A DNA stretch of 63,862 bases from Nanobdellati archaeon (lineage in GTDB: Archaea; EX4484-52; GLR71). Below, piece after piece: positions 5,261-63,599 of the stretch (position 1 is the stretch's first letter; every line of letters starts with the position of its first letter). Where the stretch lies: assembly GCA_019429125.1 (NCBI GenBank), contig JAHYJO010000005.1, forward strand, positions 1 through 63,862, read 5' to 3'. A program made the translations under genes and the position numbers. The notes under the pieces were generated by a model, which saw nothing but the letters and a program-made list of their open reading frames with translations, made no database searches and was not told the origin of the DNA.

Positions 5261-5592
5261 ATGGATGTTATTTATTTTGTGTTACGTCCTATGATTATGT
5301 CACCCTAGGGATACGTTTAAGTTTTCATAACAAATTATCAACAAAACAAAAAGTTCTTTATACACATCTCAATTAACTATATAAATGTGACCGACTAATA
5401 TATCTTATAGTGAAAAACAACTTTTCCTATGCTTATTTAAGGTGGTTTTAAAAGAAAACAAAGTATTAAAGACAATTCTGGCACAATCTTCGTAAAATGA
5501 TAAGATTTATGCCTTTGCCGAACTTGTTTTTTCAAATACTCCAACAATATTATAATTAGCAAAAGATATTGACTTTTATTGATGTGAAACAG

Positions 5593-31240: not shown

Positions 31241-34200
31241 ATGTCTTTTGAGTTTAATAAATTAAAAAAGAATAATCTGCATGTCTTATTGCTCTTTTTT
31301 TTATTAATCCTTATTCTTATAATTTTAATAAAACCCTACGGCATATATACTGGTAATCTATTAGCCTCAACATCAACCGAATCATTTAGATTATCACCTG
31401 AATCAATTAATCTCTGCAGTATTGAAAATAATATTGCTAATTTATCTTTTGGACCCTTAAATCAGACCTCAATAATTTGCAAAAATGATTCTTATTCTTT
31501 CTCACAATCTTCACCCTCATCATCTTTGCCTTCATCTTCATCTTTATCAGGATTGTCATCTTATCTAGAATTAACATTTTCAGAAATATCATCAGATAAC
31601 TTTAACATTACAGGCACTGACCTAATCTTTGATTGGTACTCTGAAGTTGTCTACGATGCCCAGATATTTTATCAAGCAGATAATGGGACTTATGAAAAGG
31701 TATGTACTCTTAAAATACCAAACACTCAAAGCCAGTCAATTTGTGATTTATCAGACAATATCCAATCCATATCCAATCTGCATAATGCGACAGTGCGCAT
31801 CTACTTCCAAGAAATCCCCATAACCACTACAATATCCAATTTGATAACAGGTAAAGTTTTAGGTGTAATGAACAACAACGAATCACAGACTCAGACTCTT
31901 GACAACTCCTCAAATGATAATATTTCAGTAGATAATACAACAATAGGTGATGAAATAAGTGGCGATATAGATACTTCCAAATCTATTGAAAACAACACCT
32001 TAAATTTGACAGACAACAGTACAATTACAAATATTACTGAATCAGTCAATATTACAACAGATAACATTACTGCCGATAACATAACAATCGAAAACCTAAC
32101 AAATACTACTCTCTCACTTGACAATATAACAACTGATAACCTTACAACAGAAAACATTACAAATTCTACAATAATTTTTGATAATATAACAACTGATAAT
32201 GTCACAATAAACAACATTACTATTGATAACCTCACAACTGACAACATTACCTACACAAATAAAACAATAACTGACAATCTAACAGATACAAATACTAATT
32301 TAAGTTCTAATCATCCAATTTTAGATAACTATACACTAAATATATCCCTTCCATCTCCGGCAGATAACACAACAACAAATAACACATTGACAGATAATTC
32401 ATCCACTCAAAATGCAACAATCCATATTTCAAACATATTTTTAAATATAAAATATATTATCTATAATGCGATAACTCTTAACATGTATTCAGACATTACT
32501 GAATACTTCCCAAACGACAATGTCTCAATCTACATCTCTGGCGACAGCAAGATAATAGACAAAATCCAACTTACAATAGACCAAAACGATTACGAATTAA
32601 AAAACATTTCAGAAAACAAATGGAAATTTATCTGGACTGCGCCACAAAACTCATCAACCAAAGATGTAAAAGTCACAGTCACAGCATATGATTTAAAAGG
32701 CAAACGTCTGGATGCAGTAACATTAAAACTATCTCCCAAAAATATGATTGCTACTTCAATCCCTGAAACAAAAAAAGAGACTGCAGTTAATTCAACAGAT
32801 ATCAAATTCGGTGCAAGATTAATCTATGAGAACAACAGCGCATATAAAGGTGCACAGTTATTTTTTGGTTGCAATCAGACAGATGGCAGTTACACTTATT
32901 TAGGTACAAACATTACAGACGATTCCGGCTGGGCAGTGCTGACCTCAGACAATTCATCAGTACCTGAAGACTGTTTCTTATATGTAGATTACAGAGGAAA
33001 TACAACTTTGCATACTCTTCCAAGTTTCAACAGTTCTTTGGGTCTTCCAGTGGCAATCCCTTACAAACTAAAAGACCTACCGACTGACATAAATATCTAT
33101 GACAGCATAACAGGCGAACTAATCCCTTACAATCAATATGCATCTTTGAAAAGTCCAAAAAAAATCAATCTGCGCCTCGCCGATTCAACCGGTTTCATCT
33201 TCTTTGATTCAGTAGATTTAGATTATATAAATACATCCAAAAGACCATCAATAATCAAGGATTCCAAACTGAAACAAAAGATAGAAAAAAAGACAAAAGA
33301 GACAGTCAACGATTTAATCTGGGTCGAAGCAGATGACTTTGTACCAAACACAACTGGTGGAAAAATAATCCTGCCATCAATAGGTTACAAGACCTTTAAG
33401 TGCGATGGCACACTCGAAGATCCAGATTGTTTTGAAATAGATACCTGTTCAGTATCAGAAAAACCATGTTACGAATATGACAACGGAACTACGATTATCT
33501 ACGTCAATCATTTCTCGGGCGCTTTCAATACAATCAACTGGACAACAGACGATGATTGGAACACGGGTACTCATGTGAACACGACCAGTTCAGCAGGTGA
33601 CCTTATCCTTTCAGGCACAAACACAACCGGATATTATCTTTCAAACACAACTGATACAACTTATACAATAATAAGAATTAAACCTATATGGAATTCAACC
33701 GAGCAGGATGCAAACAAGAACATAACAGTTGAAATCTCAGCAGATAACGGCACAACTTGGTTAACTACCACAAACAACACAAATTACACAACAGGTGCTG
33801 GCATCAGTACAGGACATGAACTAGTATATCGTATAAACTTATCAACAAATGATTCTGCAACCTCTCCGAAAGTCCACGACATAACATTGGATTACTATGT
33901 AATAATTCCAAACATATCAATATCCCTAGATACCGATAAGACTACTGCAACACCTAATGAAAAAATAACAGTTACAGGTTATGCAGTCCTCCAACCAGGT
34001 GATACTGATGTTGTAAATAATATTATGTATCTATGGTTTGATGAAACACTCATAAGTCCCTCTGAGTGGTGGAATACTTCATGGCGATATAGAGTACCTA
34101 TAACTGTTGACACTGGCAATTATGGTCCAATAATAAACGAGAACATATTCAAAAGGATTAATTTCAGACAGATGCTTGACAATCAAGGCATTTCTGAAGA

Positions 34201-37200
34201 TGTTGATAACAATTCCATACGTGTAATTAGTGATACTGGTAAAGAGGTAGAAAGTAATGTAATTTTCTGGTACACAGGCAATGAGGGTCTTGTATGGTTT
34301 TACATTAACACAACAATCCCTACAAATACGGAGAAGATATATTATGTGTATTTTGAGACTACAAGCAATCCAAAAACACCAAAGATATATGCGAGATCAC
34401 CACCACCTGATGTAGCAGTACAGTTTCAGGGTGGTAGCGACAACGGTGGCAGTGGCGGAATAACACGCATCATGGGCGACTACAATGGAAGCTTTACAAT
34501 ATACAATAATGACATACCAAATCCCGGTGCAAATTCACACGATTCTCAATGTATTGCGGATTTCGATAATGATGGGGACTGGGATTATGTGATGAGTAAA
34601 AATACGGATTCAAACATTTATTATTACCGTAATAATGGCAATGGTGACGGTTTTTCAAATTTCACAAGTATGGGCTCAATAGGTACGAGATCTTCAACAT
34701 CCCACTTTATGGCCTGTGCAACGGCAGATTTCAATAAAGACGGAAACATGGATTTCATATCTTTCAGTGATACAAATTGTTGCCGTGACCTATTCTTAGG
34801 GAACGGTGACGGAACATTCAACAAGACTGAAAATGCTCTAGCCAATGGTGTCTATAACAGAGACATATCTGTAGGTGATTTTGATGGTGACGGCAACATG
34901 GATATTGCTATAGGTCATTATGGTGCCTATAATTGGTATATTTATTATGGCTTTGGTGATGGTAATTTTACTGCACCAATTTATATCGGTAATTATGGTG
35001 GTTCAAATGCAGACCCATATGCAGTCGCATCTGGGGACTGGAATCATGATGGTGTTTTAGACATAATTGTAGGTGGTGCATATTATGGTCACGATGGCAC
35101 TGCAAGAAAGAAATTCCAAGGTAAAACTGGTGGTCAAGGACCTTCATATTTCACAGATATGGGCTACTGGACAGGACCTAATGGTATTGATATAGGTGAT
35201 GGTTCAAGATCTAATGTTCATGGTTGGATGGAAGGTTATGACTGGAACCATGACGGCAATGATGATATAATAGGGAATATATATGCTGATAATATTGCAT
35301 CTCAATGCGGTATTTATTATTGGCAGGGCACTTCTGCAGACTGGGGATTTGAGAACGCGGTCAAGTTAGGTGTCGGTGCAAGATGTTGGATGGGTGAAGG
35401 TGGAACATCACCTCAGGTAGGACATAATTTAGGTTACTATGTAATATCTCCAAATGATTTAGAACAAATCCTCATAACAAACAATACTGGATTTTATAAT
35501 TACACATTTATTGCGACATCAGTAACAGGAACACACACACTAAAAATAAATACAACTGATGAAAATGAAGTATATGGTGAAAATTCAACAAACATAACAC
35601 AACCGTCAATAATCATCTCCGACCAACAAGCGATATCTATTGAAAGTCAGACAAAATATATTCTGATAGACGAACAGATAAATATTTCGGTAAAAGTTTA
35701 CAAGAATATTGACAATCCGATTGATTCGGTCTGGGTAAACATAACGATGCCTAATTCAACAGTAAAAACTTATTTTTTAGACAACACAACAAATAGGACT
35801 GAGACACAGATATGGGATGTCATATTAGACACAACATCAGAATTTGATAATTTAATAGGGACGTACAATATAACATTTTATGCAAATTCAACACTTGAAA
35901 ACGGTTCTACAATAATCCAACAAGTGCCTACACAACTGATTAATTTTTATATTCAAAAATTAGTAGTTTTTGTAAAAAATAAAGATGGTTCATCCGTTTC
36001 AGATGCCAATATTATAGTTTATGTTCACAACACTACTGATATTGTCTGTCAAGGTAATACTACTACTAATGGTCAATTTGATTGCAGTGCTGTTGAAACC
36101 TCAAAAGCTTATGATATATTATATGACAATATTCCCGGTCGTTTCTCTCAACTCTGGAAACGTATGGTCTTTATACCTAATAACACAATTGAATTTGTAA
36201 CTCCTTATACATATTCCTGTTCCGATGGAAGCGGTTCAAATTGTGATGTTTACAGCGATCTTGAAGTCCGTGTCTATGAAGATTTAATTAATTTAAAAAC
36301 ACCAGGTGGCAACCTTTTGGCAATCATCCACACAACCACATCCGGACTCTCAAACGACACTAGTGCCACAAACGGTGCCACTATAACTTTTGATAAAAAC
36401 ATAACGTCTGTCTGGGACAATCCAGTATGTACAGATGGTTATTATTATGGTTGGGGCAAAGAATACGATTACGGTGCCGAAGGTTTTATTTTCTTATTTA
36501 ATTCTCAGGATAATATTGTCGGTTGTAATCAAAAAATAAAAATCACAAATGCAACCGGTTCATTCGAATCTTACCTCCTTGTCAATATCTATGAGACCAC
36601 CACCGGTTTTTTATCATGTAGTGGTCATACCAATTCAGAAGGTACGATAAATTGCGGGTTATCTTCAGGTTTATATGACCTGAAGACAGAAAACGGTTCT
36701 TATGCATTAAACGTTTCAAAAAACTCAACAGTCACACTTATTGCCTATGATAGTCCTAAGACTCTTTCCGATTTGACAATAAAACTTACAAATTCTACAG
36801 GTGACGCATTACCATATATCCCATTAAACATTTATGAAAATGACACAGGTAATATAGTTTGTTCAGTCACCTCAAATGAAGATGGATATATCATCTGTTC
36901 CTTAGATTCCGCAAAGACCTATGACGTTTTAAATTATACAAACATTTCATTGCCAGATTCATACATAATTGACATTACTCAATATCTTTTTGAAATACAG
37001 ACATTAGAGTATGGAATACCTATAAAGGACAATCATATAATTGTAAAAGATGGTTCAACGACAAAATGTGATGGTTATACAGACATCAATGGTATGTATT
37101 TGTGCTCTATACAGTCTAATAATTACGATATCTATGTTGGCACAGATAATGAACTAGTCGAAAACGTCAAATTCACATTATCATCCTCTGAGTCTCATAT

Positions 37201-40200
37201 CCTTGAGATGTCACCATACCTATTAAAAACTGAAGTTATTGCAACGGGTGGTGGTATTAATTTTAGTGAAATAAATGTATTTGACCACGAATCCAGCAAT
37301 CTTGTTTGTCAAGCTTCGGATTTTCAGGGCATTAATTACACTGTTCGTTGTTATCTTGCAAACAGATCCATAGCTTATGATGTTTTGTATAACAACACAA
37401 TCGGCACAATAGACCACATGTGGAAAAAGACAGTATTATTACCTGAAAATTTAACATTTCATGAATCTGAAGATTATCCAGACTACTGTAATTTAGAATT
37501 GCGTATCTATGATAAATATTATACGGATACTATGCCTGACGGTCTTTTGCTTGGTACAGTTCTGCATGGTATTGGCAAGTGTTCAGATATGGATATCTAT
37601 GGTTTTGATAGTACTGTAACTAGTGAATGGAACAACCCTGTATGTACTGGAAATAATTTTTATGTATGGACCTATTCTGGAATAGGTAAACGTTCAGCAC
37701 ATTATAATTTTTCAGGTTCAGTCTCTGGCTGTAATCTAGATATAACTGTGAAAAACACATATAATGAAACATTGACATTTGCAAGTGTTTCAGTCTATGA
37801 TAAAGACACACAGATTTTAAGATGTGTTGGCAATACTAATTCTAATGGACTTTTAAGTTGTGGTCTTCCTGTTGGTAATTATAGTATACGTGCCTGTTTT
37901 GCCGGTTATTGTGCCTATCAAGATATTTCATCACTCGGTTCATATTCAGTTACTATCCCAAACATTATGAATACAATTTCAGTTGTAGTTACAGATATTT
38001 TAAATGAAGACCCATTAGTTTCAGATGCCAATATTATAGTTTATGTTCACAACACTACTGATATTGTCTGTCAAGGTAATACTAATACCAATGGTTTATA
38101 TAATGGTCAATTTGATTGCAGTGCTGTTGAAACCTCAAAAGCTTATGATATATTATATGACAATATTCCCGGTCGTTTCTCTCAACTCTGGAAACGTATG
38201 GTCTTTATACATAACACAATTGAATTTGTAACTCCTTATACATATTCCTGTTCCGATGGAAGCGGTTCAAATTGTGATGTTTACAGCGATCTTGAAGTCC
38301 GTGTCTATGAAGATTTAATTAATTTAAAAACACCAGGTGGCAACCTTTTGGCAATCATCCACACAACCACATCCGGACTCTCAAACGACACTAGTGCCAC
38401 AAACGGTGCCACTATAACTTTTGATAAAAACATAACGTCTGTCTGGGACAATCCAGTATGTACAGATGGTTATTATTATGGTTGGGGCAAAGAATACGAT
38501 TACGGTGCCGAAGGTTTTGGATATATGTTCAATTCAACAAATGATATATCTGGTTGTAATCAATCTATTACAATAATTAATGAATCCGGCAGTCTTTTAA
38601 ATAATATCAATGTCAAGATCTATAATTTTATAACCGGCAAACTTAATTGTGAAGGTAAGACGAACACTAATGGAATAATTAAGTGTGGTTTTTATTCTGG
38701 GAATTATAACATAACTACAGAGTATGGTGCATACATTTTAGATGCAACCATTTCAAACGATTATATTATTCAGAAATATAATTCCTCAACCATAATGGAA
38801 ACTCTTGATGTCGAGTTGAAAGATATAATTGGAGATTCAATATCTTATGATAAACTTACATTCTATGACGCAGAGACATCAATAATTGCATGTCAAGGAT
38901 ATCCAAACGAACAGTCAAGACTTATCTGCTCATTAAATGCATCCAAAAATTATACCGTCATGGTCTGGGAAGGTAATGTTTCTTATACTCTATCAACACA
39001 TAAAAATATTGAGTTACCTGACACAACATCAATACAAGAGAATGTAGATTTAACTGTATTAAAATATACATCCGATAAAAATTACATTCCTTTATCTGAG
39101 GAAATTATTAAATTATATTCTGGTGGAATTTATGTTGCCCAAGGTATGAGTAACGAACAAGGTCACATTGGTTTTGCATTAGATATTGCACCAACCTATT
39201 ATCTTAATATTTTTGATTATATTGGTACAGATGCTATAATTGCAGTTCCATTAACAACAACAACATATGTATATGTCTCTCTTTCACCAAAACTAAATAA
39301 AACGGATGTAATGTCTGGAGAGACCATATTATTGAATGGTACAACAATATTTCAGCCAACAGGGGACTTACTTCCTAATTTAAATGTAAGTGTATACCTT
39401 AATGGTACTCTCTTAGGAAATACAACAACAAATGCAAGTGGTGAATATGCATACCAGATTACAGCGCCAACAACAGACGGAAATTTTACTTTAATGGTAA
39501 ATACCACAGATTTAAATGGTATTTATGGTGAATATTTAACCAATTTTATAGTAGATACTTCTCCTCCAAATATAACGATAATATCTCCTAAGAACAGATC
39601 TTATACATCATCAGTTTGGTTCAATCTCAGTGTAACAGATATAAGGGGTACTGATTGGTGTGGCTATTCATTAGACAACACAGCAAATATCACCTTATCA
39701 AATGATACACTAACTAATTTCTACGATGTTAATAGTTCTATGACTGAGGAGACACATACTGTCATATTTTACTGTAATGACACTGCTGGAAAATTAAATT
39801 ATACAACTGAATACTTCAATATCGATTTAACTTTACCGACAATAACACTTGATGCTCCTGTTAATAATACAGTTATAACAGAGCCACCATTATGGATTAA
39901 TTTAACAATGGCGGATGATTTATTATTAGATACATCTTGGTGGTCAAACAATTCAGGAACAATCAATTATACATTAAATTCACCTTGGGATATAGATATG
40001 AGCGAATGGCCTGAGGGAGACAATATAATTCATGTTTGGGTAAATGACAGTGCAGGTAACACAGTACAGAAAGTATATCTATTTATATTAAACAGGTATC
40101 ATCCAGAAATAGAATTTGTAGACCCAACAGACAATAATAGTGGTCTTGTAAACCGAGATTGGAGTTATATTAATGTCTCTGCATCAAATTTAGGTAGCGA

Positions 40201-44041: not shown

Positions 44042-44059
44042 TTGATTTAACGTGTAGAA

Positions 44060-44227
44060 GGCACTGTTCATTTTTCGAGTGATTTCAAACAGAATGTAGT
44101 TAATTAAATACCTTTATTTCTTTTGTAATTCGACGTGAAATGTGTATATTAAATGGATTTCTGCAGGAGTTTATAAACAAACAATATTTAAAAAATATTC
44201 AAAATCACTAACTTTTTGGATAGTGCC
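44060..44227. mobile_element. 168-bp MITE with 8-bp target site duplication
   Basis: Ends GGCACTGTTCA...TGGATAGTGCC, flanked on both sides by GTGTAGAA (44052-44059 and 44228-44235). The body recurs at 58864. Confidence 0.85.
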
Positions 44228-44286
44228 GTGTAGAATATAAACCTAAATAATAAATTAAACATTATACAAATGTATTGAATACTCGT

Positions 44287-45846: not shown

Positions 45847-45875
45847 GTTATCTACCCTTTATTATTTTTGTACCT

Positions 45876-55193: not shown

Positions 55194-55504
55194 AGAATCT
55201 CACATAAGAATCATAATCAATAATATAGTATACTTTATTAGTACTTATTCGCGATGTTTATATTTATTCAAGATGTATATATATAGATTGTATATGTCTA
55301 TCAACTTAAAAGCCATTATCCTATCAAATTTACATCAATTTTTTTAGGATTCATATGAATCTATATTAATGTCATCTGCACAAATATTCCTATCAATAAC
55401 TAGTATATATAAAAACCAGTAATAATTGTTAGTATGATTGGTAGCAAAACACATCTGTCTTATATAAGGCGAGTTGCAGAAAAATATAGTATGTGGGTTT
55501 ATCT

Positions 55505-58500
55505 ATGAAAAATAAAATTGTAAACAATAATCTCGTGGTCTTATTCATCGTACTGTGTACATTATATTTATCCTTTAATTCAGCTTTTGCATTAATAGAA
55601 AACCCCACGGCTTATATAAATGAAGAAGTGACCTATTATTATAATACTGATGGTTCAGTATCTTATTTTATTCCTCCTGTGGGTAATGTGGAAGTAGAAG
55701 TATCAAACACGCATGATGTTCTTCAATACTTAAAATTAAATCTATCAAATGCAGAGCTTGCCTACACAAATATACTTTCAAACACAGCTTATGCCTCTGT
55801 TGCAGCATCAACTAGTATTGGTGCTAAGACCCGAATGTTATTAAATACTGATAATGGTCCAAAAGATGTAAGTTACAAGATCACAAATTCAAATATTGTT
55901 CCCGTAATAGGTTTAACCTTCAATTACCAAAATGTTGATGGTGGCTCTGATTTATCTGCAGGTAAAACTAATACTTTGCGTTTTAATATCTTTATTGATT
56001 CAACAAAAGATCTTAATGATGTCACTCTTTATTTTAAAATACCAATAAACATTAATGGGTCAAATGATGCTGCCAATCTTTATAGTCCAAGTGTTGCAGA
56101 TGGCACTATCACAGTTTATGATTCAGATGGTGATAAAATTGATGATTCTTTGGTCTGGCGGGGGAATTTGACTGTTGCAGGTCTAAATCTCTATGTGTAT
56201 GCAGACACGACTCCAGGCATAAATTTTGATGATGCTTCGTATTCACTTGATCTCATGTGTACCTCTTGTGTGTATGCAATTAATTATGGTCCGACATTTA
56301 CAGGACTTTCTTTTTCAAATCTGTTTTCAAGAGGTCCAATAAATAATGGGATTTATATCATGTTTCAGAATGAGACCTACGTTAGGGGTTTTATGAAAAA
56401 TATTGCAAGGGGTTTAAATTATGCAGTTGATGGTTGGAAACTATATAATATAAGTAATTTTGATACACCTATAATATCTGATTCAACACCATTTATCCTT
56501 TATCCTAATGATATGTATAACACTGATTTTTATAAGGTAACAAATGCTTCTGAAAAATATTTTACAGTGGCTTTTGATTGGGGTATAATATGGAACCCCT
56601 CTGTATATACAGGTACTACTAGGAGTTTTATAGATTTGCCAACAATATATGAGGGTGATATAAGTTTAGGTAAATCGTCAACTCATAGTTTGTCTGACAA
56701 TAATGTATCTGTTGTTGTTGCAGGTACTTATGTAGGTAATGAAAATCTTGAAATACGTTCAGTCTCAATAAATTCTATAATTCCTCATCAATCTGAAGGT
56801 GGAATAGTTCATGTATGGGATGTGATTGATTGGTCTGATATTGTTGTATATCATATTAATTCTTCAGGTAATAAAACACAAATAGTTGTTACTGAAGATA
56901 TGGTAGTTTTACAGATTCCAAATGCGACTGATGATGGTTTTATGTATCTAAATATAGATAATATCTCTCAAAAAACAGGTTATTATCTAACTTTGAATAA
57001 CGATATACAGATAACTTATAATCTCTCAACAACTCCTTTGGATACTCAAAATATTTTTTCATTCAACACAACTGTCATTGCAAAAACTTTATCTGGAACT
57101 CCTATACTCAGAACTATAGTAGAAAATGTGACCTTGTATGGCGAAGGTATTGTTTCAGAACCTCCTAGTGGTGGTGGCTCTCCAGGTGGTGCGGGTGGTT
57201 CTCCCCCTCCTCCAGAACGTGTGATTGAGCTTGTTAAGGCTGCTGTAAAATTAAATCTTATTGATTCTAATACTGCTGATATATCCGGCACATATAAGCT
57301 TATAGACCCCGAAGATATTGGTATAAACGATATGGTAATTCTGTTAGATATACCCGAGGACGCATTAATATTTAATCCTCAATCCATTGAGATTATGCGA
57401 TATGATTCAAAATTGGGTTATTGGGTTGATTTCGATGACAAAAATATAATCCTTGAGAAAGACTATGCTTATGTATCTGGTAAAGTTTTTTTTCAGATTA
57501 ACATAAATAATTATGGTGTTAAGGGTAGTGGTCCAATATTGAAGGATGATGATCTTTTGAAAATAAGTTATGTTCTGACATTACCTTATGGTTCCTATGA
57601 TCTGGTGTTGCGTGCACAGATACCTGTAACAACTACAAGTACTCAAAGTGGTCTAAAAGAGACAGATATACACATTCCTATAAGGATAACAAATGATGTT
57701 GGTCTAGCAGAATCGCTTATAATCACTGAAAGCCAATTTGAGGTTGAAAATATTTATGTTGGTATCTCTCCTGTATGGACAAAGACTATCGAGGTACATA
57801 ATCCAAACGCATATTCTATGAGTCATACATTTGATATTGAGATTTTACCTGATTTTTTAAATGTTAACCTTACTACTGCAGGTACTCCTATAATTAATTC
57901 AATAAAAAATGTAGATGGCAATCTTACTGTCGGATGGAAAGAGACGTTTAAACAAAATGAGACAAAGACCTATATATTAAATATCACTACTGCTCCTGTA
58001 ATACGGACTTTAGAGAATTATACAGTCCTTGAAGCAACTGAGGAGAATGTACGCATGCTTGCGACAGTGCGACTTACAAATCCAAGTGGGACTGATTATG
58101 GGAATGTAACCTTCTTGTATATTGGTGACCTAGATATAATTGATGTATCTGATAGTGATGGAAATACACTAGATTTTATTGTAACTGATGAAGCGACAAC
58201 AATAATAGTCCCATTGATAAAAAACAATTCTTCTGAATACATATTGATAAAATATTATGATTACTCTGATGTTTTGGTGGTAAGTCTTGATAAGCTGGTA
58301 TATACGCCAGGTGATACAAAATATAATATTTTATATGTTCCATCACGGGACGAAAAAACAATAAGTATTAGTGTTGAAGTATTGGGTTCTGCATCTTCAA
58401 AAGCATTCACCACAACATACGCAGATGTTATAATACTTGAAAATATATCTCGCCATAATGAAGTCAATATATTTGATACCTTGAAATTCAGTCCATTGTC

Positions 58501-58735
58501 TTCTGGAGTCCATACAATTTTTGTACAGGTATATTCTAAAGACCGGCTTATAGGGGAAGATTCAGAGACGTTCACTGTATCGGTAGATTACGATAAAAAT
58601 AGTTATTCAATAAATAGCTATACTCTTTCAATTCTAGTTATTTTGATAATGTCTTTAATCTTGTTACGGATTTATAAGAAAAGAGGGTTCAATGATAGTC
58701 TTAATGCTCTTAAGAGAAGATTAGATACAGTTTGA
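55505..58735 (+). CDS. Large secreted, C-terminally anchored protein (1080 aa), paralog of 59498-62824
   Basis: Signal peptide, DVLQYLKLNLS, FSRGP, FDW, LPTIYE, a Gly/Pro linker, and a C-terminal TM with basic tail. Confidence 0.82.
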   Translation: MKNKIVNNNLVVLFIVLCTLYLSFNSAFALIENPTAYINEEVTYYYNTDGSVSYFIPPVGNVEVEVSNTHDVLQYLKLNLSNAELAYTNILSNTAYASVAASTSIGAKTRMLLNTDNGPKDVSYKITNSNIVPVIGLTFNYQNVDGGSDLSAGKTNTLRFNIFIDSTKDLNDVTLYFKIPININGSNDAANLYSPSVADGTITVYDSDGDKIDDSLVWRGNLTVAGLNLYVYADTTPGINFDDASYSLDLMCTSCVYAINYGPTFTGLSFSNLFSRGPINNGIYIMFQNETYVRGFMKNIARGLNYAVDGWKLYNISNFDTPIISDSTPFILYPNDMYNTDFYKVTNASEKYFTVAFDWGIIWNPSVYTGTTRSFIDLPTIYEGDISLGKSSTHSLSDNNVSVVVAGTYVGNENLEIRSVSINSIIPHQSEGGIVHVWDVIDWSDIVVYHINSSGNKTQIVVTEDMVVLQIPNATDDGFMYLNIDNISQKTGYYLTLNNDIQITYNLSTTPLDTQNIFSFNTTVIAKTLSGTPILRTIVENVTLYGEGIVSEPPSGGGSPGGAGGSPPPPERVIELVKAAVKLNLIDSNTADISGTYKLIDPEDIGINDMVILLDIPEDALIFNPQSIEIMRYDSKLGYWVDFDDKNIILEKDYAYVSGKVFFQININNYGVKGSGPILKDDDLLKISYVLTLPYGSYDLVLRAQIPVTTTSTQSGLKETDIHIPIRITNDVGLAESLIITESQFEVENIYVGISPVWTKTIEVHNPNAYSMSHTFDIEILPDFLNVNLTTAGTPIINSIKNVDGNLTVGWKETFKQNETKTYILNITTAPVIRTLENYTVLEATEENVRMLATVRLTNPSGTDYGNVTFLYIGDLDIIDVSDSDGNTLDFIVTDEATTIIVPLIKNNSSEYILIKYYDYSDVLVVSLDKLVYTPGDTKYNILYVPSRDEKTISISVEVLGSASSKAFTTTYADVIILENISRHNEVNIFDTLKFSPLSSGVHTIFVQVYSKDRLIGEDSETFTVSVDYDKNSYSINSYTLSILVILIMSLILLRIYKKRGFNDSLNALKRRLDTV

Positions 58736-58863
58736 TGTTTGTTATTATCTATTAATCTCTATTAATCTCTATTATAATCTATTATTGTATATTATTGAGT
58801 ATCATTCAAAAATGGACTTCATATATCATATATAATTCTCAGCGTGATTTAAATTACAATAAC

Positions 58864-59385
58864 GTCACAGTTCATTTTTTGAGTGATTTCAAACAAAATG
58901 TAGTTAATTAAATACCTTCATTTCTTTTGTAATTTGACGTGAAATGTGTATATTAAATGGATTTCTGCAGGAGTTTATAAACAAACAATAGAGGACTTGG
59001 AATAACTCCTTATTTTTTTATTAAGTCTCATTTTTTGAATAAATATAAAATTTATACATAGTTTATCCTAATTTTCACATCAAATCTTGTCATTTTTCCT
59101 TATTTCTCCTCATATTTTGTTACAAATTATATAGCTCTCGCTAGGTTCTTATTGTCTTGTGTAACTAAATTATAGAGATTATATGCGACACATTTAAACA
59201 TTTCTTTTATTGAAACTCGTTCAATTCGTTTAACCCTAGTTCTTTCGCCATTAAACACCCTTTTTATTACAGAGAACGGTCTTTCTCCAAGTGCTCTTTT
59301 TTTTGAAATTCTATAATTTCTACGTTTTTCTCTAACTGTCAATATTTAAAACATATTCAAAATCACTCACTTTTTGAACAGTGCC
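58864..59385. mobile_element. Second MITE copy, interrupted by a ~350-bp IS5-like fragment
   Basis: 58864-58990 and 59340-59385 match the 44060 element. The insert at 58991-59339 is flanked by CAATA on both sides. Confidence 0.8.
59127..59342 (-). pseudogene. C-terminal fragment of IS5-family transposase
   Basis: RNYRISKKRALGERPFSVIKRVF...AYNLYNL matches the R-x3-E-x6-K signature. Confidence 0.75.
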
Positions 59386-59497
59386 GATAACCTGTGGTAT
59401 TTATATAGTAGGAATGATAAAATAAAAATGTCAATAGTATTAAGCATTAATATTAATGTTATTTGCTTTTAATAATTGTTGTTTGCAGGTGATCGAT

Positions 59498-62400
59498 ATG
59501 GATAAGTTTAAAAAATGTATTTTGGTTATGCTCTTTAGCATATGTTTCTTATTTGGCACTGTTTCAGGTGTAGTCGGTCCGCGAATATTTATAACTGAAA
59601 CTGTTTTAGGTGGCAATCCTACTTATACTGCAGGTGATGCTGGTGCAGGTGGAGGTGGTGGTTTTGGTTATACTAATCCCGTAACACGTACAGGTAATGT
59701 ATATGTGTATGTCCCAAACACAGTTGATGTTTTGCAATATGTGCGGGTGAATCTGTCATCTGAAGCCAGCTCTCGTGCAGACATCGAGACTTGGACCATG
59801 GCTGGCGACAAATATAGTGGTGGATACACAGCCTATAAGAATTACGCATTATCTTATCCGACATTAGCTTCTAGTACCTCAATGTTCTTGAACACAAGTG
59901 GTGATGGTGATACGACTGACGATGATTTGAGTTATCTACCCGATTATGACTGGGCACCTTCTTTAAATCTTACAATGACTGTAGTAAACACTGCAGGTGG
60001 TGATGATCTTTATTCAAGTGATAACTTAGCATCTGGCACAAACATAATGAACTATACATTCACAATAAGAAATGATGCGGGTTCAGGTGGTATAACCTTA
60101 AACGGTGTAGACTTTACAATATTGTTTGATACAGATACTAATGGTGGTTCAGATGCATTAAATATCACCGCAAGTACAATAACAACAACTGGTGGTGGCA
60201 CTTCAACAGAATCGAGCAGTGATGGTGCTGATGGTTATATTGATAAAATTGCTTGGAATGGCAACATTGCAGCAAACACAACAATCACAATATCATTTAA
60301 TGCGACTATAATAAGTGGTATAAATTATCTTGGTACTTCAAATGAAATAAACCTTAACGGTGAAACAGGAACTACAGGTGCACGAGCAGAATACACAAGT
60401 AATGCACTTATGACAGGCATCACAGTAACTGGCGAATTTTCAAGAGGCCCCGTAAGAGAAGGTGTTGACCTTGTAAGTGCTACTCCTTGGCAGATAAGAG
60501 GTTTCTTCAAGAATACTGCGACCTCTTCTGCGACAGGAAATCTTACATATAATGTTACAACTGCGGAGATTTATACAGTAAATCCAACTACTGGTCTTCC
60601 GATTACACCTGCAAATCTATCCAATACTTGGAATTATCTATCAGTCCCAGGCATGCAGAATTATACTGCGTATACTGATGGACCTAGTGATGATTCAAAA
60701 CCATATATGGCTGCATCATTTGACTGGTATGTCATGTGGAATGATACAAACAAGTATACATATTCTTCAATAATAAACACATCTATGCAATTACCTACAC
60801 TTTATGAAATCGACATGGATTATTCAAAGAAAATATCTGGTACATTAGCACCTGCGATTCCAGATATAGTTATAACACTTAATGATACTATAAAAAATAC
60901 AGGTAATTCAAACAGTCAGGTTGATGCAGATAACATAACACTGATTGCACAGATTCCAAGATATGCTGATGGAACGAATAATTACAGGAACTTTACAATA
61001 AATACAAGTTCAATAAAAGTATATCTTAATGATACTATTGCTAATTTCGAACTTGACCAATCTGATTTTACTGTAACAACAGTTCAGTCAAGTGAAAATA
61101 ACAATGGTACAATAACAGTAAATATAAATGACTTAAGCACTGTCACTTATGTAGTTGGTGGAAGTCCAGTAGGTCGTGACTTAAAAGGTGCCAATGTTGA
61201 TTCAATTATTATATCCTATAATGTAATTACTGCAGCGCCTTTATCTCTAAATGGCGAAACTTTTTCATTCACAGGCAATGCAACATTAGTCTCCCAATCT
61301 GGAACAACATTGACAGAAGCACCAGTTGCACCTATGTATTTAAGTGCAAGTCAGAACTCATTGAGTGGTTATAAAGAATTATGGATTTCAAACCCAGCCG
61401 TACCAACAATTGTTAATGCAATAATCAATGTAAGTATTGTAGGGACTGTTAATGACATAAAATTCATGGATTACATCCCTGCAGACATCTCATTTAGTAT
61501 CGCAGGAAATAGTGTGATTGTTAAAAAAGGCGCTACAACTCTTGTCAATGGCACAAATTATTACCTTGAATTCATAGGTTACACAATCTTAAGTGACGGT
61601 CTAAACGTCAGTGTATGGGAATATAGACTAGATGCATTGAATGGTTGGGATCTAACTAATGATTATATCCAGGTTGGATATGAGATGGATATATCGACCG
61701 GTGGTGTCTACACATTACCTGTACAGATAGCAGCATTCGACCCAATTGTGGGTAAAGGCATAAGTACTGCCAACATGGGCGTTGTCCAAGTTTACATCCC
61801 AAAAACTCTAGAACCATTGGATGTGACTGATGATGGAACTTTCCAGCTTGCAAAATCAGTCATCGTAGGTACTCCTGCATTATGGATAAAGAATTTCGAA
61901 GTTCAGAATTCTAATGCACGATCAACAGAAGCACGATTTACAACATCCATATTTGAAGACACAATAAATGCATATGCAACATATTACGATATGGGTGGTG
62001 CAAAAGTTGAAGAGTCATTAGATATAGATACAACAAATGACGGAACTGAAGCATTCTGGAACTCAAAAATATATGCAATGGAATCAAGACTATATACTAT
62101 AAGTATTACTACACCTCCTGTAATAAACATTGACAAGACTACTGAAGTTGTAGAAAAACTTGATAACAAAAGGGTATTGGTCAAGACTGACATATTCCTT
62201 AAAAACTTAGCAAAAGCGAAATATACAAACATAAAGCTAAATACTGGAATCGGTGCAGATAACATAGTTTCAGTACAGGACTCATTCGGCAATGACTTAG
62301 AATTCAAAGGTGGCGAGGCAACTTCAACAGTAGTTATACCTGCGATGGAAGGCGAAGGATTAGCAACAGTAACTATCATATATGAGCAGGCTTATCCTAC

Positions 62401-62824
62401 AATAATAGTTAATCCAAAAAATGATAAGTATGATTCCGGAACATCTGGATACCTTGAAATCCTAATCATAAATGGCGGTGACAAGATAGATCAAGCATAT
62501 CTTGAAAGTGAAATTTATACACAAGATATGGAACTTATTCATATCAATGTACAGACTTTAGCAGCATTAGAACCTCTTGAAAAGACAGAACTTTCAGAGA
62601 AATTTATGATTCCTATGTCATCACCGACAGGGATGTACATTGCAAATGTAAAATTCAAGGAAGATTTCACAACCTTAGCAGCAACTACGGGACAATTCTA
62701 TGTCACAGGAGCAACATCAACCGGTTTAAGAGTGATTGAGACTTTGTTGTTGATATTGATAGGTGGTGTTTTGATATTCTATCTTCATAAAAGAATAGTC
62801 ACAATAAATACAAAAAAAGTATAA
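59498..62824 (+). CDS. Large secreted, C-terminally anchored protein (~1110 aa), paralog of 55505-58735
   Basis: GGTGA SD then ATG 59498, signal peptide, DVLQYVRVNLS, FSRGP, FDW, LPTLYE and a C-terminal TM. Confidence 0.85.
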   Translation: MDKFKKCILVMLFSICFLFGTVSGVVGPRIFITETVLGGNPTYTAGDAGAGGGGGFGYTNPVTRTGNVYVYVPNTVDVLQYVRVNLSSEASSRADIETWTMAGDKYSGGYTAYKNYALSYPTLASSTSMFLNTSGDGDTTDDDLSYLPDYDWAPSLNLTMTVVNTAGGDDLYSSDNLASGTNIMNYTFTIRNDAGSGGITLNGVDFTILFDTDTNGGSDALNITASTITTTGGGTSTESSSDGADGYIDKIAWNGNIAANTTITISFNATIISGINYLGTSNEINLNGETGTTGARAEYTSNALMTGITVTGEFSRGPVREGVDLVSATPWQIRGFFKNTATSSATGNLTYNVTTAEIYTVNPTTGLPITPANLSNTWNYLSVPGMQNYTAYTDGPSDDSKPYMAASFDWYVMWNDTNKYTYSSIINTSMQLPTLYEIDMDYSKKISGTLAPAIPDIVITLNDTIKNTGNSNSQVDADNITLIAQIPRYADGTNNYRNFTINTSSIKVYLNDTIANFELDQSDFTVTTVQSSENNNGTITVNINDLSTVTYVVGGSPVGRDLKGANVDSIIISYNVITAAPLSLNGETFSFTGNATLVSQSGTTLTEAPVAPMYLSASQNSLSGYKELWISNPAVPTIVNAIINVSIVGTVNDIKFMDYIPADISFSIAGNSVIVKKGATTLVNGTNYYLEFIGYTILSDGLNVSVWEYRLDALNGWDLTNDYIQVGYEMDISTGGVYTLPVQIAAFDPIVGKGISTANMGVVQVYIPKTLEPLDVTDDGTFQLAKSVIVGTPALWIKNFEVQNSNARSTEARFTTSIFEDTINAYATYYDMGGAKVEESLDIDTTNDGTEAFWNSKIYAMESRLYTISITTPPVINIDKTTEVVEKLDNKRVLVKTDIFLKNLAKAKYTNIKLNTGIGADNIVSVQDSFGNDLEFKGGEATSTVVIPAMEGEGLATVTIIYEQAYPTIIVNPKNDKYDSGTSGYLEILIINGGDKIDQAYLESEIYTQDMELIHINVQTLAALEPLEKTELSEKFMIPMSSPTGMYIANVKFKEDFTTLAATTGQFYVTGATSTGLRVIETLLLILIGGVLIFYLHKRIVTINTKKV

Positions 62825-62869
62825 GATTAAAGTAATTTGGTAATATAATAGAATATGACGTGATTATGT

Positions 62870-63073
62870 ATGTATATATTTGGAATCAGTATTGAATTAT
62901 TGGATTTTATAACTCTTTTTTTTGTTATCCTAGTAACTTATATAATCATATTAGAATATGAATTCAAGCAGGTCTTGAGTATTGTAAAAAAATATGATGG
63001 TGAAGAGATGATGCTTAGTAAAAACATAAGAGAACTAAAAGAAGAATTGCAAAAATTAAGAGATAATATCTGA
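62870..63073 (+). CDS. Small membrane protein with coiled-coil tail
   Basis: Transmembrane helix then EFKQVLSIVKKYDGEEMMLSKNIRELKEEL. Confidence 0.7.
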   Translation: MYIFGISIELLDFITLFFVILVTYIIILEYEFKQVLSIVKKYDGEEMMLSKNIRELKEELQKLRDNI

Positions 63074-63152
63074 ACTCTAAAAAATAGTGAGTGTGTATGA
63101 GTGCATATAATACTGAATATTGATGAAATATAAAAATTATGGATTGATTTAT

Positions 63153-63599
63153 ATGAATATACCTTTTCTTGGAATCTTTTTCCCTATTGAAGAAGCGATA
63201 GTAATCACATGCATTATCATTATAGTATATTTGATTGTGTTTAGATTTGAATTCAAGCAATTGTCAATAATCTCAAAAAAGATTGGTGATGAAGAGACTG
63301 AACTTAACAAGGATATAAAAGAATTACAGCAAGAATTGAGTGCATTTGGTGGCAACATAAAAAGTATAGATGCTGTGTCTTCCGCCGTATCTTCAGCAAC
63401 TAAATCAGAGGATTCGGATGAGTATGACATGCCAACAGACGACATAAAGTCTGATGATACAAAATCCGAAGATATAAAAGTCGATGCTGTCAAAGCCGAT
63501 AATATCAAATCATCCGACCCAAAAGTGAATAAGATCAAAGCAGATAATCAAAAAACAGAAAATTCTGAGATTGACAGGCTCAAAAAGATGCTGGATTAA
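63153..63599 (+). CDS. Small membrane protein, paralog of 62870-63073, with D/K-rich repeat tail
   Basis: Transmembrane helix then EFKQLSIISKKIGDEETELNKDIKELQQEL, followed by DDIKS-like pentapeptides. Confidence 0.7.
   Translation: MNIPFLGIFFPIEEAIVITCIIIIVYLIVFRFEFKQLSIISKKIGDEETELNKDIKELQQELSAFGGNIKSIDAVSSAVSSATKSEDSDEYDMPTDDIKSDDTKSEDIKVDAVKADNIKSSDPKVNKIKADNQKTENSEIDRLKKMLD

What the first reader, a model, noticed from the sequence alone, without database searches (positions are those of the whole stretch)
31241..63599. A ~32-kb locus of related giant surface proteins, an ATPase motor, a coiled-coil protein and small membrane proteins: candidate envelope-spanning contact/translocation machine
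Seen: seven genes (4266, 519, 3105, 1080, ~1110, 67 and ~149 aa). All four large proteins have an N-terminal signal or anchor, a C-terminal TM, and shared modules. One carries a cytoplasmic HerA/FtsK-type ATPase. Known: this ATPase superfamily forms ring translocases, and host-dependent archaea often encode giant surface proteins. Inference: the genes encode one multi-subunit apparatus for host attachment and ATP-driven uptake or secretion, matching no named secretion system I recognise.
Basis: partly seen in the sequence, partly recalled or inferred. Interest (0 to 1): 0.87.

Follow-up and report, generated by a model that had tools for sequence, protein, structure and literature searches.

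The report
SPEARE-type giant ATPase surface-protein locus
A small-genome archaeon carries a conserved gene cluster built around a 3,105-residue surface protein with an ATP-burning motor on its inner end; this protein class (SPEARE) is already described, but its constant partner genes appear not to have been reported.

Summary
All seven ORFs are real, with the stated sizes and topologies. The 3,105-aa protein has a signal anchor, a 2,700-aa glycosylation-rich ectodomain, one TM helix and a cytoplasmic HerA-clade P-loop ATPase with a helical tail. This is the architecture published for nanohaloarchaeal SPEARE proteins (Hamm 2019; Reva 2023), which were already proposed to be secretion or host-interaction devices, so the core idea is not new. 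I could not align it to a named SPEARE protein.

What the papers I read do not describe:
- A cytoplasmic coiled-coil gene lies directly downstream of the ATPase gene in 68 of 80 related loci, and in 30 of 45 places in 42 sister genomes.
- In the ~3,000-aa subfamily, a ~1,100-aa surface protein and one or two small TM/coiled-coil proteins precede the giant gene. The small proteins were found in 12 of 12 loci with the same-strand layout.
- A P1/P4-like surface gene converges after the coiled-coil gene in 15 of 80 loci.
- The ATPase groups with HerA, not VirB4/TraG, and no type IV secretion parts were found.
- The family also occurs in records labelled Hydrothermarchaeota, with open frames above 10,000 aa.

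The mechanism (ring translocase versus anchoring hub) remains inferred. Verdict: a new variant of a known kind, of moderate interest.

The parts
45876..55193 (-). P0003, a 3105-aa SPEARE-type protein. It has a signal anchor, a ~2,700-aa ectodomain, one TM helix, a cytoplasmic HerA-clade ATPase and a C-terminal helical hairpin.
   Evidence: 214 relatives of 1707-5434 aa have the ATPase region at 54-65% identity in the best 120 listed. 351 cluster representatives score E<=1e-30.
45879..46976 (-). Cytoplasmic ATPase domain with helical tail (P0003 residues 2740-3105, stored as P0008). Walker A lysine is K2798 and Walker B glutamate is E2922.
   Evidence: Pfam DUF87 4.5e-13 and HerA_C 3.3e-7. PDB profile search: 8 of 10 matched sequences are HerA-type, best 4d2i at 4.1e-12. 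Foldseek top hit is HerA 4d2i at 4e-13, on a model of pLDDT 87.5. Invariant motifs are listed.
46959..47060 (-). Transmembrane helix of P0003 (residues ~2712-2745), followed by a basic stretch.
   Evidence: One long helix, 153-186 of the 546-aa model. Sequence.
47061..47396 (-). Membrane-proximal beta-sandwich module (residues 2600-2711). It is shared with P0001, the C16 giant and a C18 fragment.
   Evidence: Profile built from 24 relatives: P0003 5.2e-27, C16 giant 2e-17, C18 fragment 1e-12, P0001 6.5e-10.
53664..54365 (-). Beta-propeller-like region of P0003 (residues ~277-510).
   Evidence: BLASTP to the window's own propeller protein at 26397-27788 (2.5e-7) and to C30:6932-8584 (4e-10). 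Weak Pfam hits to FG-GAP and BBS7 propeller. Relatives carry PQQ_2 and Beta-prop families.
44287..45846 (-). P0002, a 519-aa acidic coiled-coil protein with no TM, 30 bp downstream of P0003. It is the conserved partner gene.
   Evidence: No Pfam family at E<=0.01. The conserved N-terminal core covers residues ~17-320.
31241..44041 (+). P0001, a 4266-aa type-I surface protein with FG-GAP propeller repeats, a LamG domain, Ig-like repeats, a P4/P5-like module, the pre-TM module and a C-terminal TM. It converges on P0002.
   Evidence: The same convergent position is held by P1/P4-like genes in 15 of 80 related loci.
34559..34930 (+). FG-GAP repeats of P0001 (residues 1107-1230).
   Evidence: Pfam FG-GAP_3 1.5e-18.
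40385..40852 (+). Laminin_G_3 domain of P0001 (residues 3049-3204).
   Evidence: Pfam 1e-28.
42644..43561 (+). P4/P5-type module inside P0001.
   Evidence: Profile A1, positions 422-737, E 5.6e-23.
55194..55492 (.). AT-rich divergent intergenic region between P0003 and P0004. It presumably holds two promoters.
   Evidence: Sequence read. No promoter test was run.
55493..58735 (+). P0004, a ~1,080-aa type-I surface protein with the DVLQY and FSRGP motifs. It is a paralogue of P0005.
59456..62824 (+). P0005, a ~1,110-aa type-I surface protein. The model shows a string of beta-sandwich domains.
   Evidence: mean pLDDT 60.5; residues 450-1085 are the well-modelled part. Foldseek matches are generic only, TM ~0.08-0.11.
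62870..63073 (+). P0006, 67 aa, with an N-terminal TM followed by a charged helix (inferred to be cytoplasmic).
63120..63599 (+). P0007, ~150 aa, a paralogue of P0006 with an acidic low-complexity tail.
   Evidence: In relative G024 the next genes are a DEAD-box helicase and a serpin-like protein, so the cluster ends here.

Best explanation
The locus is a SPEARE-type cell-envelope module of a small-genome (1.16 Mb) DPANN-like archaeon.

P0003 is exported by its N-terminal signal. It displays a ~2,700-aa glycosylated ectodomain (a propeller plus Ig-like domains) and crosses the membrane once. Directly under the membrane it places a HerA-clade P-loop ATPase, which by analogy with HerA is expected to form a ring. 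That would bundle about six TM helices and six ectodomains.

The cotranscribed cytoplasmic coiled-coil protein P0002 is its constant partner. P0005 (with its paralogue P0004), the small TM/coiled-coil proteins P0006 and P0007, and the adhesin P0001 are lineage-specific accessory surface subunits. P0001 shares one module with each side.

Most likely the ATPase does work at a cell-cell or cell-surface contact held by the giant ectodomains. That work would be either moving a polymer (DNA or protein) through or along the ring, or driving assembly or conformational change.

What is shown: gene structure, topology, intact catalytic motifs, HerA-like fold, and conserved synteny.
What is inferred: ring formation, physical association of the subunits, any substrate, and any host.

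My odds: about 0.85 that this is the SPEARE family, and about 0.35-0.4 that it is a true translocase.
For: Architecture and topology.

ATPase:
- Invariant Walker A, Walker B, R-E-x-R and S-Q motifs in 29 relatives.
- Pfam DUF87 and HerA_C.
- PDB profile search: 8 of 10 matched sequences are HerA-type.
- Foldseek: HerA 4d2i at 4e-13, followed by other HerA structures and the STIV2 B204 packaging NTPase.
- The ATPase evolves much more slowly than the ectodomain. Against G024 it is 90% identical versus 67% for the ectodomain. Against G007 it is 67% versus 38% over the whole protein.

Partner gene:
- Directly downstream in 68 of 80 loci, elsewhere in 2, and absent in 10, of which 4 have less than 1.5 kb of room.
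- Downstream in 30 of 45 places in 42 genomes.
- The same pair is duplicated in this genome on contig C16, as an 8,119-aa giant plus a 668-aa coiled-coil gene.

Accessory genes:
- P5-P6-P7-giant-cc are collinear in G007 and G006.
- P6/P7 homologues were found in 12 of 12 loci that have a same-strand P5 upstream.
- 15 of 16 loci with a visible start of a 2,900-3,110-aa giant have a P4/P5-family gene upstream (counted from the lists).

Published precedent: SPEARE architecture, proteomic detection and a secretion proposal.

Link to nanohaloarchaea: genomes labelled Nanohaloarchaea or Nanohalobium hold 7,869- and 8,315-aa frames whose ATPase is 54% identical. Each is followed by a second ATPase match in a 637-677-aa open frame, as Reva et al. 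describe.
Against: - No substrate, channel-forming polytopic protein, nuclease or known secretion component is encoded in the locus. Pfam, NCBIfam, PADLOC and PHROGs give nothing for P0002, P0004 and P0005, and only weak sub-threshold hits for P0006 and P0007.
- One TM helix per subunit is little to build a pore.
- HerA proteins of defence systems act as scaffolds rather than pumps, so a HerA fold does not prove transport.
- P4/P5/P6/P7 are confined to 3 of 13 genera in the sister set.
- In G031 they are unlinked from the ATPase.
- No alignment with a named SPEARE protein could be made here.
- P0003 has no LamG domain detectable by Pfam up to E=1, whereas Hamm et al. report at least one in every SPEARE ectodomain.
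- The family also occurs in records labelled Hydrothermarchaeota and Altarchaeum, which weakens a strictly host-directed role.
Confidence: 0.45

Rival explanations
1. Adhesion or surface-coat complex with no transport. The giants and the P4/P5 proteins form the outer coat or adhesive fibres. The ATPase ring and the coiled-coil protein act as a cytoplasmic anchoring, assembly or turnover hub, comparable to an integrin-cytoskeleton link or to scaffold-type HerA.
For: - The ectodomains are made of adhesion-type folds: FG-GAP, LamG and Ig-like strings.
- All membrane subunits cross the membrane only once.
- The universal partner is a long coiled coil with no enzymatic domain.
- HerA in Sir2 and DUF4297 systems is a scaffold; those structures are among the Foldseek neighbours.
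- The family is present in lineages not known to need hosts (their lifestyle is recalled, not tested).
Against: The catalytic motifs are invariant and the ATPase is the most conserved part. That suggests sustained ATP turnover rather than a passive anchor. No cytoskeletal family matched P0002.
Confidence: 0.25
2. A true type IV secretion-like effector injector (the 'straw' of Reva et al. 2023), in which the ATPase is a VirB4/TraG homologue.
For: Proposed in print. There are weak Pfam matches to TrwB_AAD_bind (2.7e-6) and T4SS-DNA_transf (1.6e-5).
Against: - Those matches cover only the P-loop region, about residues 20-100 of the domain.
- PF03135 (the VirB4 N-terminal domain) was not found in P0003, P0008 or the second ATPase of L115.
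- The profile search of the PDB at E<=0.001 returned no VirB4, VirD4/TrwB or FtsK chains, only HerA-type and WxLIP.
- The other six proteins match no T4SS family.
Confidence: 0.08
3. A surface-linked HerA defence or exclusion system, for example against viruses or competing symbionts. The ectodomain would sense contact and the ATPase would trigger a response.
For: PADLOC HerA models (8.2e-15) and mad8 (1.6e-14) match the domain. The ectodomains diverge quickly, as expected for proteins in conflict.
Against: No effector (Sir2, nuclease or similar) lies next to it, and P0002 matches no PADLOC model. The partner genes are structural-looking surface proteins.
Confidence: 0.07
4. DNA uptake with intracellular restriction (the original SPEARE reading of Hamm et al. 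2019).
For: Pfam ResIII matches the domain at 9.4e-6. That is the hit on which the published reading rested.
Against: ResIII is the helicase/ATPase subunit profile and here overlaps the P-loop core. No nuclease domain was found. Reva et al. reached the same conclusion.
Confidence: 0.03
5. A chance cluster of unrelated surface-protein genes.
For: In G031 the P1-P7 block and the ATPase-cc pair lie on different contigs. G006 has extra dispersed P4/P5 paralogues.
Against: Synteny is kept across families and across dozens of loci.
Confidence: 0.03

Closest known systems
SPEARE proteins of Nanohaloarchaeota (Hamm et al. 2019, PMC6642349; Reva et al. 2023, PMC10266531: SVXNc_0300, BNXNv_0298, NAR1_1133)
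   Same: - Sec signal, huge ectodomain with a beta-propeller and Ig-like domains, a single TM near the C-terminus, a conserved cytoplasmic P-loop ATPase hit by ResIII and TraG-type profiles, and a terminal coiled coil.
- Nanohaloarchaeal-labelled relatives with 54% identical ATPase have 7,869- and 8,315-aa frames and a second ATPase gene downstream.
- The same taxon spread (Aenigm-, Woese-, Micrarchaeota, Altiarchaeales) is seen in the labels.
   Different: - P0003 is shorter (3,105 aa).
- It has no LamG, protease-like or toxin-like region detectable by Pfam.
- It has no second ATPase gene next to it.
- Its locus adds P4, P5, P6, P7 and P1.
- The coiled-coil partner gene is not discussed in the passages and section I read.
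HerA (archaeal/bacterial HerA-NurA helicase; HerA of Sir2 and DUF4297 defence systems)
   Same: It is the best sequence and fold neighbour, and it shares the Walker A/B and arginine motifs.
   Different: It has no HAS-barrel, and a TM helix directly precedes the ATPase core. It has no NurA, Sir2 or DUF4297 partner. The genome has a separate canonical HerA with a HAS-barrel on C17.
Membrane-anchored FtsK/HerA-superfamily translocases (TrwB/VirD4 coupling proteins, FtsK, the EssC/EccC ATPase of type VII secretion). Their topology and composition are recalled, not tested.
   Same: The overall logic is the same: TM segment(s) followed by a cytoplasmic ring ATPase, accompanied by single-pass accessory proteins and a large ectodomain protein, as in type VIIb secretion (EsaA, EssA).
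   Different: Similarity to these families is limited to the P-loop (TrwB E=0.39). There is one ATPase domain, not three. There are no WXG-type substrates or T4SS parts.

Membership tests
SPEARE proteins | A very long protein that is mostly extracytoplasmic, with an N-terminal export signal. | tested here: met
   3105 aa. Hydrophobic N-terminal segment at residues 15-33. 145 N-x-S/T sequons.
SPEARE proteins | A TM helix towards the C-terminus, with the C-terminal region in the cytoplasm. | tested here: met
   Helix at about residues 2712-2745 followed by a basic stretch. The orientation is inferred from the positive-inside rule.
SPEARE proteins | A conserved intracellular NTPase region, published as 'type III restriction enzyme-like' and later as 'VirB4/TraG-like ATPase'. 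| tested here: met
   ResIII 9.4e-6, T4SS-DNA_transf 1.6e-5 and DUF87 4.5e-13 all fall on the same domain. It is the most conserved part of the protein.
SPEARE proteins | A coiled-coil or helical tip at the extreme C-terminus. | tested here: met
   Helices 478-503, 509-523 and 527-542 of the 546-aa model.
SPEARE proteins | At least one laminin-G domain in the ectodomain. This is a description in Hamm 2019, and Reva 2023 does not use it as a criterion. | tested here: not met
   No LamG hit in P0003 residues 1-2739 up to E=1. The neighbouring P0001 has one at 1e-28. I treat this as a variable feature of a variable ectodomain, not as a defining one.
SPEARE proteins | Sequence homology to a named SPEARE protein. 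| not testable with these tools
   No named SPEARE sequence was obtainable. The indirect evidence is 54% ATPase identity to giants in genomes labelled Nanohaloarchaea or Nanohalobium.
HerA helicase (canonical) | An ATPase core of the FtsK-HerA superfamily with Walker A/B and an arginine finger. | tested here: met
HerA helicase (canonical) | An N-terminal HAS-barrel domain. | tested here: not met
   There is no HAS-barrel hit in P0003 or P0008, whereas the genome's C17 HerA has one at 2.1e-5.
HerA helicase (canonical) | A NurA nuclease partner. | tested here: not met
   The downstream gene is a coiled-coil protein with no Pfam or NCBIfam family.
Type IV secretion (VirB4 / VirD4-TraG) | The VirB4 N-terminal domain (PF03135), or a full-length match to a coupling protein. 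| tested here: not met
   PF03135 is absent, and the TrwB and TraG profiles match only the P-loop stretch. No VirB4 or VirD4 chain appears at E<=0.001 in the PDB profile search.
Type IV secretion (VirB4 / VirD4-TraG) | Other T4SS components encoded in the locus. | tested here: not met
   None of the six other proteins matches a T4SS family.
HerA-based defence systems (Sir2-HerA, DUF4297-HerA) | An adjacent effector gene. | tested here: not met
   PADLOC matches only HerA and mad8 models, all on P0008. P0002 and P0004-P0007 have no match.

The most novel reading that the evidence does not exclude
The SPEARE ATPase with its constant coiled-coil partner, plus single-pass accessory subunits (P5, P6/P7) in one sublineage, is a distinct archaeal envelope-spanning machine. 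In it a HerA-clade ring is covalently fused to the adhesin it serves. It would move DNA or protein between cells in contact, and it is not confined to DPANN symbionts, because relatives occur in Hydrothermarchaeota and Altiarchaeales. This would be an archaeal counterpart of coupling-protein or type VII-like translocases that evolved independently of them.
Probability: 0.3. Interest if true: 0.8.

Novelty: new variant of a known kind. Interest (0 to 1): 0.52.

Why it matters
SPEARE proteins are the most conspicuous candidate host-interaction factors of DPANN archaea. In the papers I read they were treated as single giant proteins with disputed domain calls: restriction enzyme, then VirB4/TraG.

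This analysis adds three things:
- The ATPase belongs to the HerA clade.
- It almost always comes with a specific coiled-coil partner.
- In one large sublineage it sits in a fixed operon with three further membrane proteins.

That gives concrete subunits to test by pull-down, cross-linking and cryo-ET in the nanohaloarchaeal co-cultures that already exist.

The occurrence of frames above 10,000 aa of the same family in Hydrothermarchaeota-labelled genomes raises the question of whether the system serves host parasitism at all, or a more general cell-cell function.

Tried and rejected
- Complex prediction of the ATPase domain (alignment A2, residues 187-546) with the coiled-coil protein (A3, residues 1-330): no verdict, score 0.01 against a mark of 0.32. 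I count this neither for nor against binding.
- The look-up of sequencing runs on window 53600-63599: none was listed and no RNA holder was listed. Read laying was therefore not used, and nothing can be said about expression.
- Fusion (Rosetta-stone) test. In some relatives the ATPase is followed by C-terminal extensions of about 100-730 aa. phmmer of P0002 and of the C16 coiled-coil protein against 11 such extensions found nothing at E<=10.
- P0005 structure: mean pLDDT is 60.5 and the N-terminal 170 residues are poorly modelled. Foldseek gave only generic multi-Ig matches (complement C3, CD109, integrins; TM 0.07-0.11). I draw no fold assignment beyond 'string of beta-sandwiches'. An S-layer role for P4/P5 was considered but could not be tested.
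- The profile of the coiled-coil family matched only designed coiled-coil peptides in the PDB (E>=0.19). Pfam gave scattered coiled-coil noise. The Atlas search gave unnamed DPANN clusters at 0.90-0.92, which are leads only.
- The P4/P5 profile against the PDB gave nothing below E=0.5.
- The pre-TM module was not significant in P0004 (E 0.54) or P0005 (E 0.0039 in a four-sequence set, partial match).
- Literature:
  - Searches were too unspecific and found nothing relevant, apart from listing PMC10266531.
  - 'DPANN' + 'DUF87' found 0 papers.
  - 'SPEARE' + 'HerA' found 4 papers, none on archaea.
  - 'Nanohaloarchaeota/giant/VirB4/coiled-coil' found only Reva 2023 as relevant.
  - My statement that the partner genes and the HerA assignment are not in print therefore rests and on the texts read.
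  - Supplements are closed. SI Table S3 and Fig. S17 of Hamm 2019, which list Aenigmarchaeota relatives, and Table S6 of PMC9563170 were not seen and could bear on novelty.
- What I saw of each paper:
  - Reva 2023: passages and the whole of section 11.
  - Hamm 2019: passages.
  - PMC9563170: one passage.
  - bioRxiv 2023.02.24.529834: one passage.
  - bioRxiv 2025.05.02.651781: passages.
  - All others: search listing only.
- Recalled from memory and not taken from any call:
  - the composition of type VII secretion systems;
  - the topology of TrwB and FtsK;
  - the free-living lifestyle of Hydrothermarchaeota.

Full report
**Observation.** The ORF list and translations confirm seven genes between 31241 and 63599.
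- P0001: 4266 aa, + strand.
- P0002: 519 aa, - strand.
- P0003: 3105 aa, - strand.
- P0004: 1080 aa from GTG. An ATG four codons later is the likelier start.
- P0005: 1122 aa. It is 1108 aa from M15, as in the database record.
- P0006: 67 aa.
- P0007: 159 aa from TTG.

A hydrophobicity scan finds an N-terminal hydrophobic segment in each large protein and a C-terminal TM in P0001, P0004 and P0005. P0006 and P0007 each have one N-terminal TM, and P0002 has none. The two giants carry 4.7 N-x-S/T sequons per 100 aa, against a median of 0.59 in 478 crude ORFs of 250 aa or more from the same genome.

The genome (G000) has 1.16 Mb in 32 contigs, is 93% complete, and has an archaeal SSU rRNA. The window is a whole contig.

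**The ATPase.** P0003 residues 2740-3105 (P0008) match several profiles.
- Pfam DUF87/HerA central at 4.5e-13 and HerA_C at 3.3e-7.
- More weakly, and over the P-loop stretch only: AAA_10, TrwB_AAD_bind, ResIII, T4SS-DNA_transf and FtsK_SpoIIIE.

Against PDB sequences, single-sequence and profile searches return HerA-type chains. The best is Sulfolobus HerA 4d2i at 4.1e-12, and 8 of 10 sequences at E<=0.001 are HerA-type. The other two are a WxL-interacting surface protein that matches the ectodomain part.

A 546-aa model covering the pre-TM module, TM and ATPase has mean pLDDT 87.5. It shows beta-sandwich domains, one long helix (residues 153-186), a RecA-like core and a C-terminal helical hairpin. 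Foldseek ranks HerA structures first (4e-13). The list also includes the virus packaging NTPase B204.

In an alignment of 29 relatives, the Walker A G-x-T-G-x-G-K, a D-P-T-x-Q-W-x-G motif, the Walker B E-x-H-R, and the R-E-x-R-x-x-G-x-G and S-Q motifs are invariant. There is no HAS-barrel, and the TM helix leads almost directly into the ATPase. The genome has a separate canonical HerA with a HAS-barrel on contig C17.

**Family size and spread.**
- 214 proteins of 1707-5434 aa match the C-terminal 406 residues. The best 120 are 54-100% identical there and are named DUF87 or DUF853 proteins of Aenigmatarchaeota where they are named at all.
- A full scan of 1.84 billion representatives gives 351 at E<=1e-30, 513 at <=1e-10 and 1339 at <=0.001. 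The domain lies at or near the C-terminus, and lengths run up to 7,878 aa.
- In GTDB species genomes, 582 stretches encode relatives. Among the best 80 loci, most named records are labelled Aenigmatarchaeota. Others are labelled Nanohaloarchaea, Nanohalobium, Woesearchaeota, Parvarchaeota and Hydrothermarchaeum/-ales. A few carry labels that are probably wrong.
- In 42 sister genomes, all of one order, the domain is found in 28. Open frames reach 12,145 aa.
- The window's genome has a second copy: an 8,119-aa protein on C16 with a 50% identical ATPase.

**Already described.** Reva et al. 2023 (PMC10266531; passages, section 11 read in full) describe giant nanohaloarchaeal proteins of 9,409 and 8,880 aa. 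These have a Sec signal, an Ig-like domain, PQQ-type beta-propellers, long Ig-like strings, a TM helix, a cytoplasmic 'VirB4/TraG-like ATPase' and a terminal coiled coil, with a second ATPase gene immediately downstream. The authors re-interpret the SPEARE proteins of Hamm et al. 2019 the same way and propose secretion 'straws'.

Hamm et al. 2019 (PMC6642349, passages) report four points.
- The intracellular part is the most conserved.
- It looked like a type III restriction enzyme.
- Similar sequences occur in Woesearchaeota, Aenigmarchaeota, Micrarchaeota and Altiarchaeales.
- The protein was detected by proteomics.

P0003 fits this architecture, including the ResIII and TraG-type hits that explain both published annotations. 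Genomes labelled Nanohaloarchaea and Nanohalobium hold 7,869- and 8,315-aa frames with 54% identical ATPase, each followed by a second ATPase match in a 637-677-aa open frame. I could not obtain a named SPEARE sequence, so direct homology is inferred rather than shown. P0003 itself has no LamG hit. The neighbouring P0001 has one.

**Conserved partners.**

(a) The coiled-coil gene.
- P0002 lies 30 bp downstream of P0003.
- In the 42 sister genomes, 30 of 45 ATPase places have a P0002 match within 2.5 kb downstream on the same strand (from the tables). I did not check how many of the other 15 lie at contig ends.
- A profile of seven homologues (A3) hits 70 of the 80 loci. In 68 the hit is directly downstream of an ATPase ORF. 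Of the 10 loci without a hit, 4 have less than 1.5 kb of room.
- De novo clustering of neighbours finds this as the only family present in most loci (69 of 80).
- The conserved part is the N-terminal ~320 residues. No known family matches.

(b) P5, P6 and P7.
- In G007 and G006, which belong to another family of the order, the order P5, P6, P7, giant ATPase, cc lies on one strand. (The G006 contig ends inside the giant gene, so its cc gene is not seen there.)
- In G024, of the same genus, the layout equals the window's.
- In G031 the block P1-like, P4, P5, P6, P7 lies on a contig without the ATPase.
- Among the 80 loci, 12 have a P4/P5-family gene upstream on the same strand. All 12 have a P6/P7 homologue between it and the giant.
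- 4 loci have the P4/P5-family gene divergent, as here.
- Of 16 loci where the start of a 2,900-3,110-aa giant is visible with at least 1.5 kb upstream, 15 have such a gene (L056 is the exception). None of the six ~2,200-aa giants do (lists).

(c) The convergent gene. A P1- or P4-like gene converges after the coiled-coil gene in 15 of 80 loci.

(d) Range of P4/P5. The family is narrow: 12 of 42 sister genomes, in 3 of 13 genera, and 15 database clusters.

**Shared modules.**
- P0004 and P0005 align over ~990 residues.
- P0001 contains a P4/P5-type stretch (E 5.6e-23).
- P0001 also contains the ~105-aa membrane-proximal module of the ATPase giants (E 6.5e-10; P0003 scores 5.2e-27).
- P0003 and P4/P5 share nothing detectable.

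P0001 thus links both sets.

**Other layouts in the family.** Some 3,800+-aa relatives have a 255-336-aa signal-peptide/TM protein between the giant and the coiled-coil gene, followed by further coiled-coil genes. The nanohaloarchaeal-labelled loci have the second ATPase gene and a small zinc-ribbon/TM protein after the coiled-coil gene. Only the ATPase-cc pair is universal.

**How it probably works.**

Shown:
- an exported giant ectodomain;
- a single TM;
- an intact HerA-like ATPase inside the cell;
- a dedicated cytoplasmic partner;
- accessory single-pass proteins whose short tails or helices would face the same side.

Inferred:
- The ATPase forms a ring under the membrane, as HerA does.
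- The coiled-coil protein and the P6/P7 helices bind it.
- The assembly works at contacts held by the ectodomains.

The ATPase is far more conserved than the ectodomain. It is 90% versus 67% identical with G024, and 67% versus 38% overall with G007. This pattern fits a constant motor serving a fast-evolving recognition surface.

Transport of DNA or protein is the natural reading for this superfamily. Against it, the locus encodes no polytopic channel protein, no substrate and no known secretion part. Scaffold-type HerA proteins also exist. I therefore give about 0.85 to 'SPEARE-family module' and 0.35-0.4 to 'translocase'. An anchoring or assembly hub is the main rival. The T4SS reading in print is not supported by my tests, and neither is the restriction-enzyme reading.

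**Novelty and verdict.** The central idea, a giant surface protein fused to a cytoplasmic ATPase acting as a host-interaction or secretion device, is published, and relatives in Aenigmarchaeota were noted in 2019.

The following appear to be new, within the limits of the searches and without access to supplements:
- the HerA-clade assignment;
- the near-universal coiled-coil partner;
- the P5-P6-P7 operon and the convergent P1/P4-like gene of the ~3,000-aa subfamily;
- the presence of 10,846- and 11,081-aa members in Hydrothermarchaeota-labelled genomes.

This is a new variant of a known kind, of moderate interest.

Noticed in passing
G031:C8 (frame ending 16786), G021:C54, G025:C30, G044:C9:1125773-1126843, G045:C14:57486-58577: Open frames of 12,145, 10,914, 9,591, 10,846 and 11,081 aa end in the same ATPase domain. 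Two of them lie in genomes whose records are labelled Hydrothermarchaeum or Hydrothermarchaeales. All exceed the 9,409 aa that Reva 2023 calls the largest protein of a cultivated archaeon. The frames were not checked for assembly errors.
   Followed up: partly
G000 contig C16:83-26486 (not in the window): A second SPEARE-type pair lies in the same genome: an 8,119-aa giant starting at the contig edge and a 668-aa coiled-coil gene. A 1,973-aa ORF follows them.
   Followed up: partly
window 36067-36479 and 38101-38510: P0001 contains two stretches of about 410 nt that are 99-100% identical and lie ~2,031 nt apart. It also has three 549-nt tandem units at 40958-42355 that are 76-83% identical to the first unit. 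The exact copies could be a recent internal duplication or an assembly artefact.
   Followed up: no
window 29390-30481 (-): A DDE_Tnp_1 transposase fragment (227 aa, Pfam 1e-9) and a 128-aa ORF lie just upstream of P0001. This may be an IS remnant at the edge of the locus.
   Followed up: no
window 5569-7974 (+): GyrB carries an intein: the Intein_splicing domain falls at residues 453-597, between the GyrB and Toprim domains. GyrA follows at 7995-10817. Another 940-aa ORF of the same length lies on contig C13; their identity was not compared.
   Followed up: no
window 58736-59497: About 760 bp without a convincing ORF separate P0004 from the likely start of P0005. The same gap is 108 bp in G024. 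This may be an insertion or a regulatory region.
   Followed up: no
L077:11580-12497 and L065:11574-12584: In some 3,600-3,900-aa relatives the gene after the giant encodes a ~305-336-aa signal-peptide/TM protein. By eye, its C-terminal tail resembles the conserved helical tip of the ATPase proteins. This was not tested statistically.
   Followed up: no
A2 profile positions 97-271 (ectodomain just outside the membrane): The pre-TM ectodomain of the ATPase family matches the Enterococcus WxL-interacting protein EfmWxLIP1 (9i1y) at 5.9e-5. This hints at a shared Ig-like surface-anchor domain.
   Followed up: no
window 26397-27788 (+): A 463-aa beta-propeller protein (PQQ_2, FG-GAP_3, Beta-prop families) resembles the propeller of P0003 (BLASTP 2.5e-7).
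   Followed up: no
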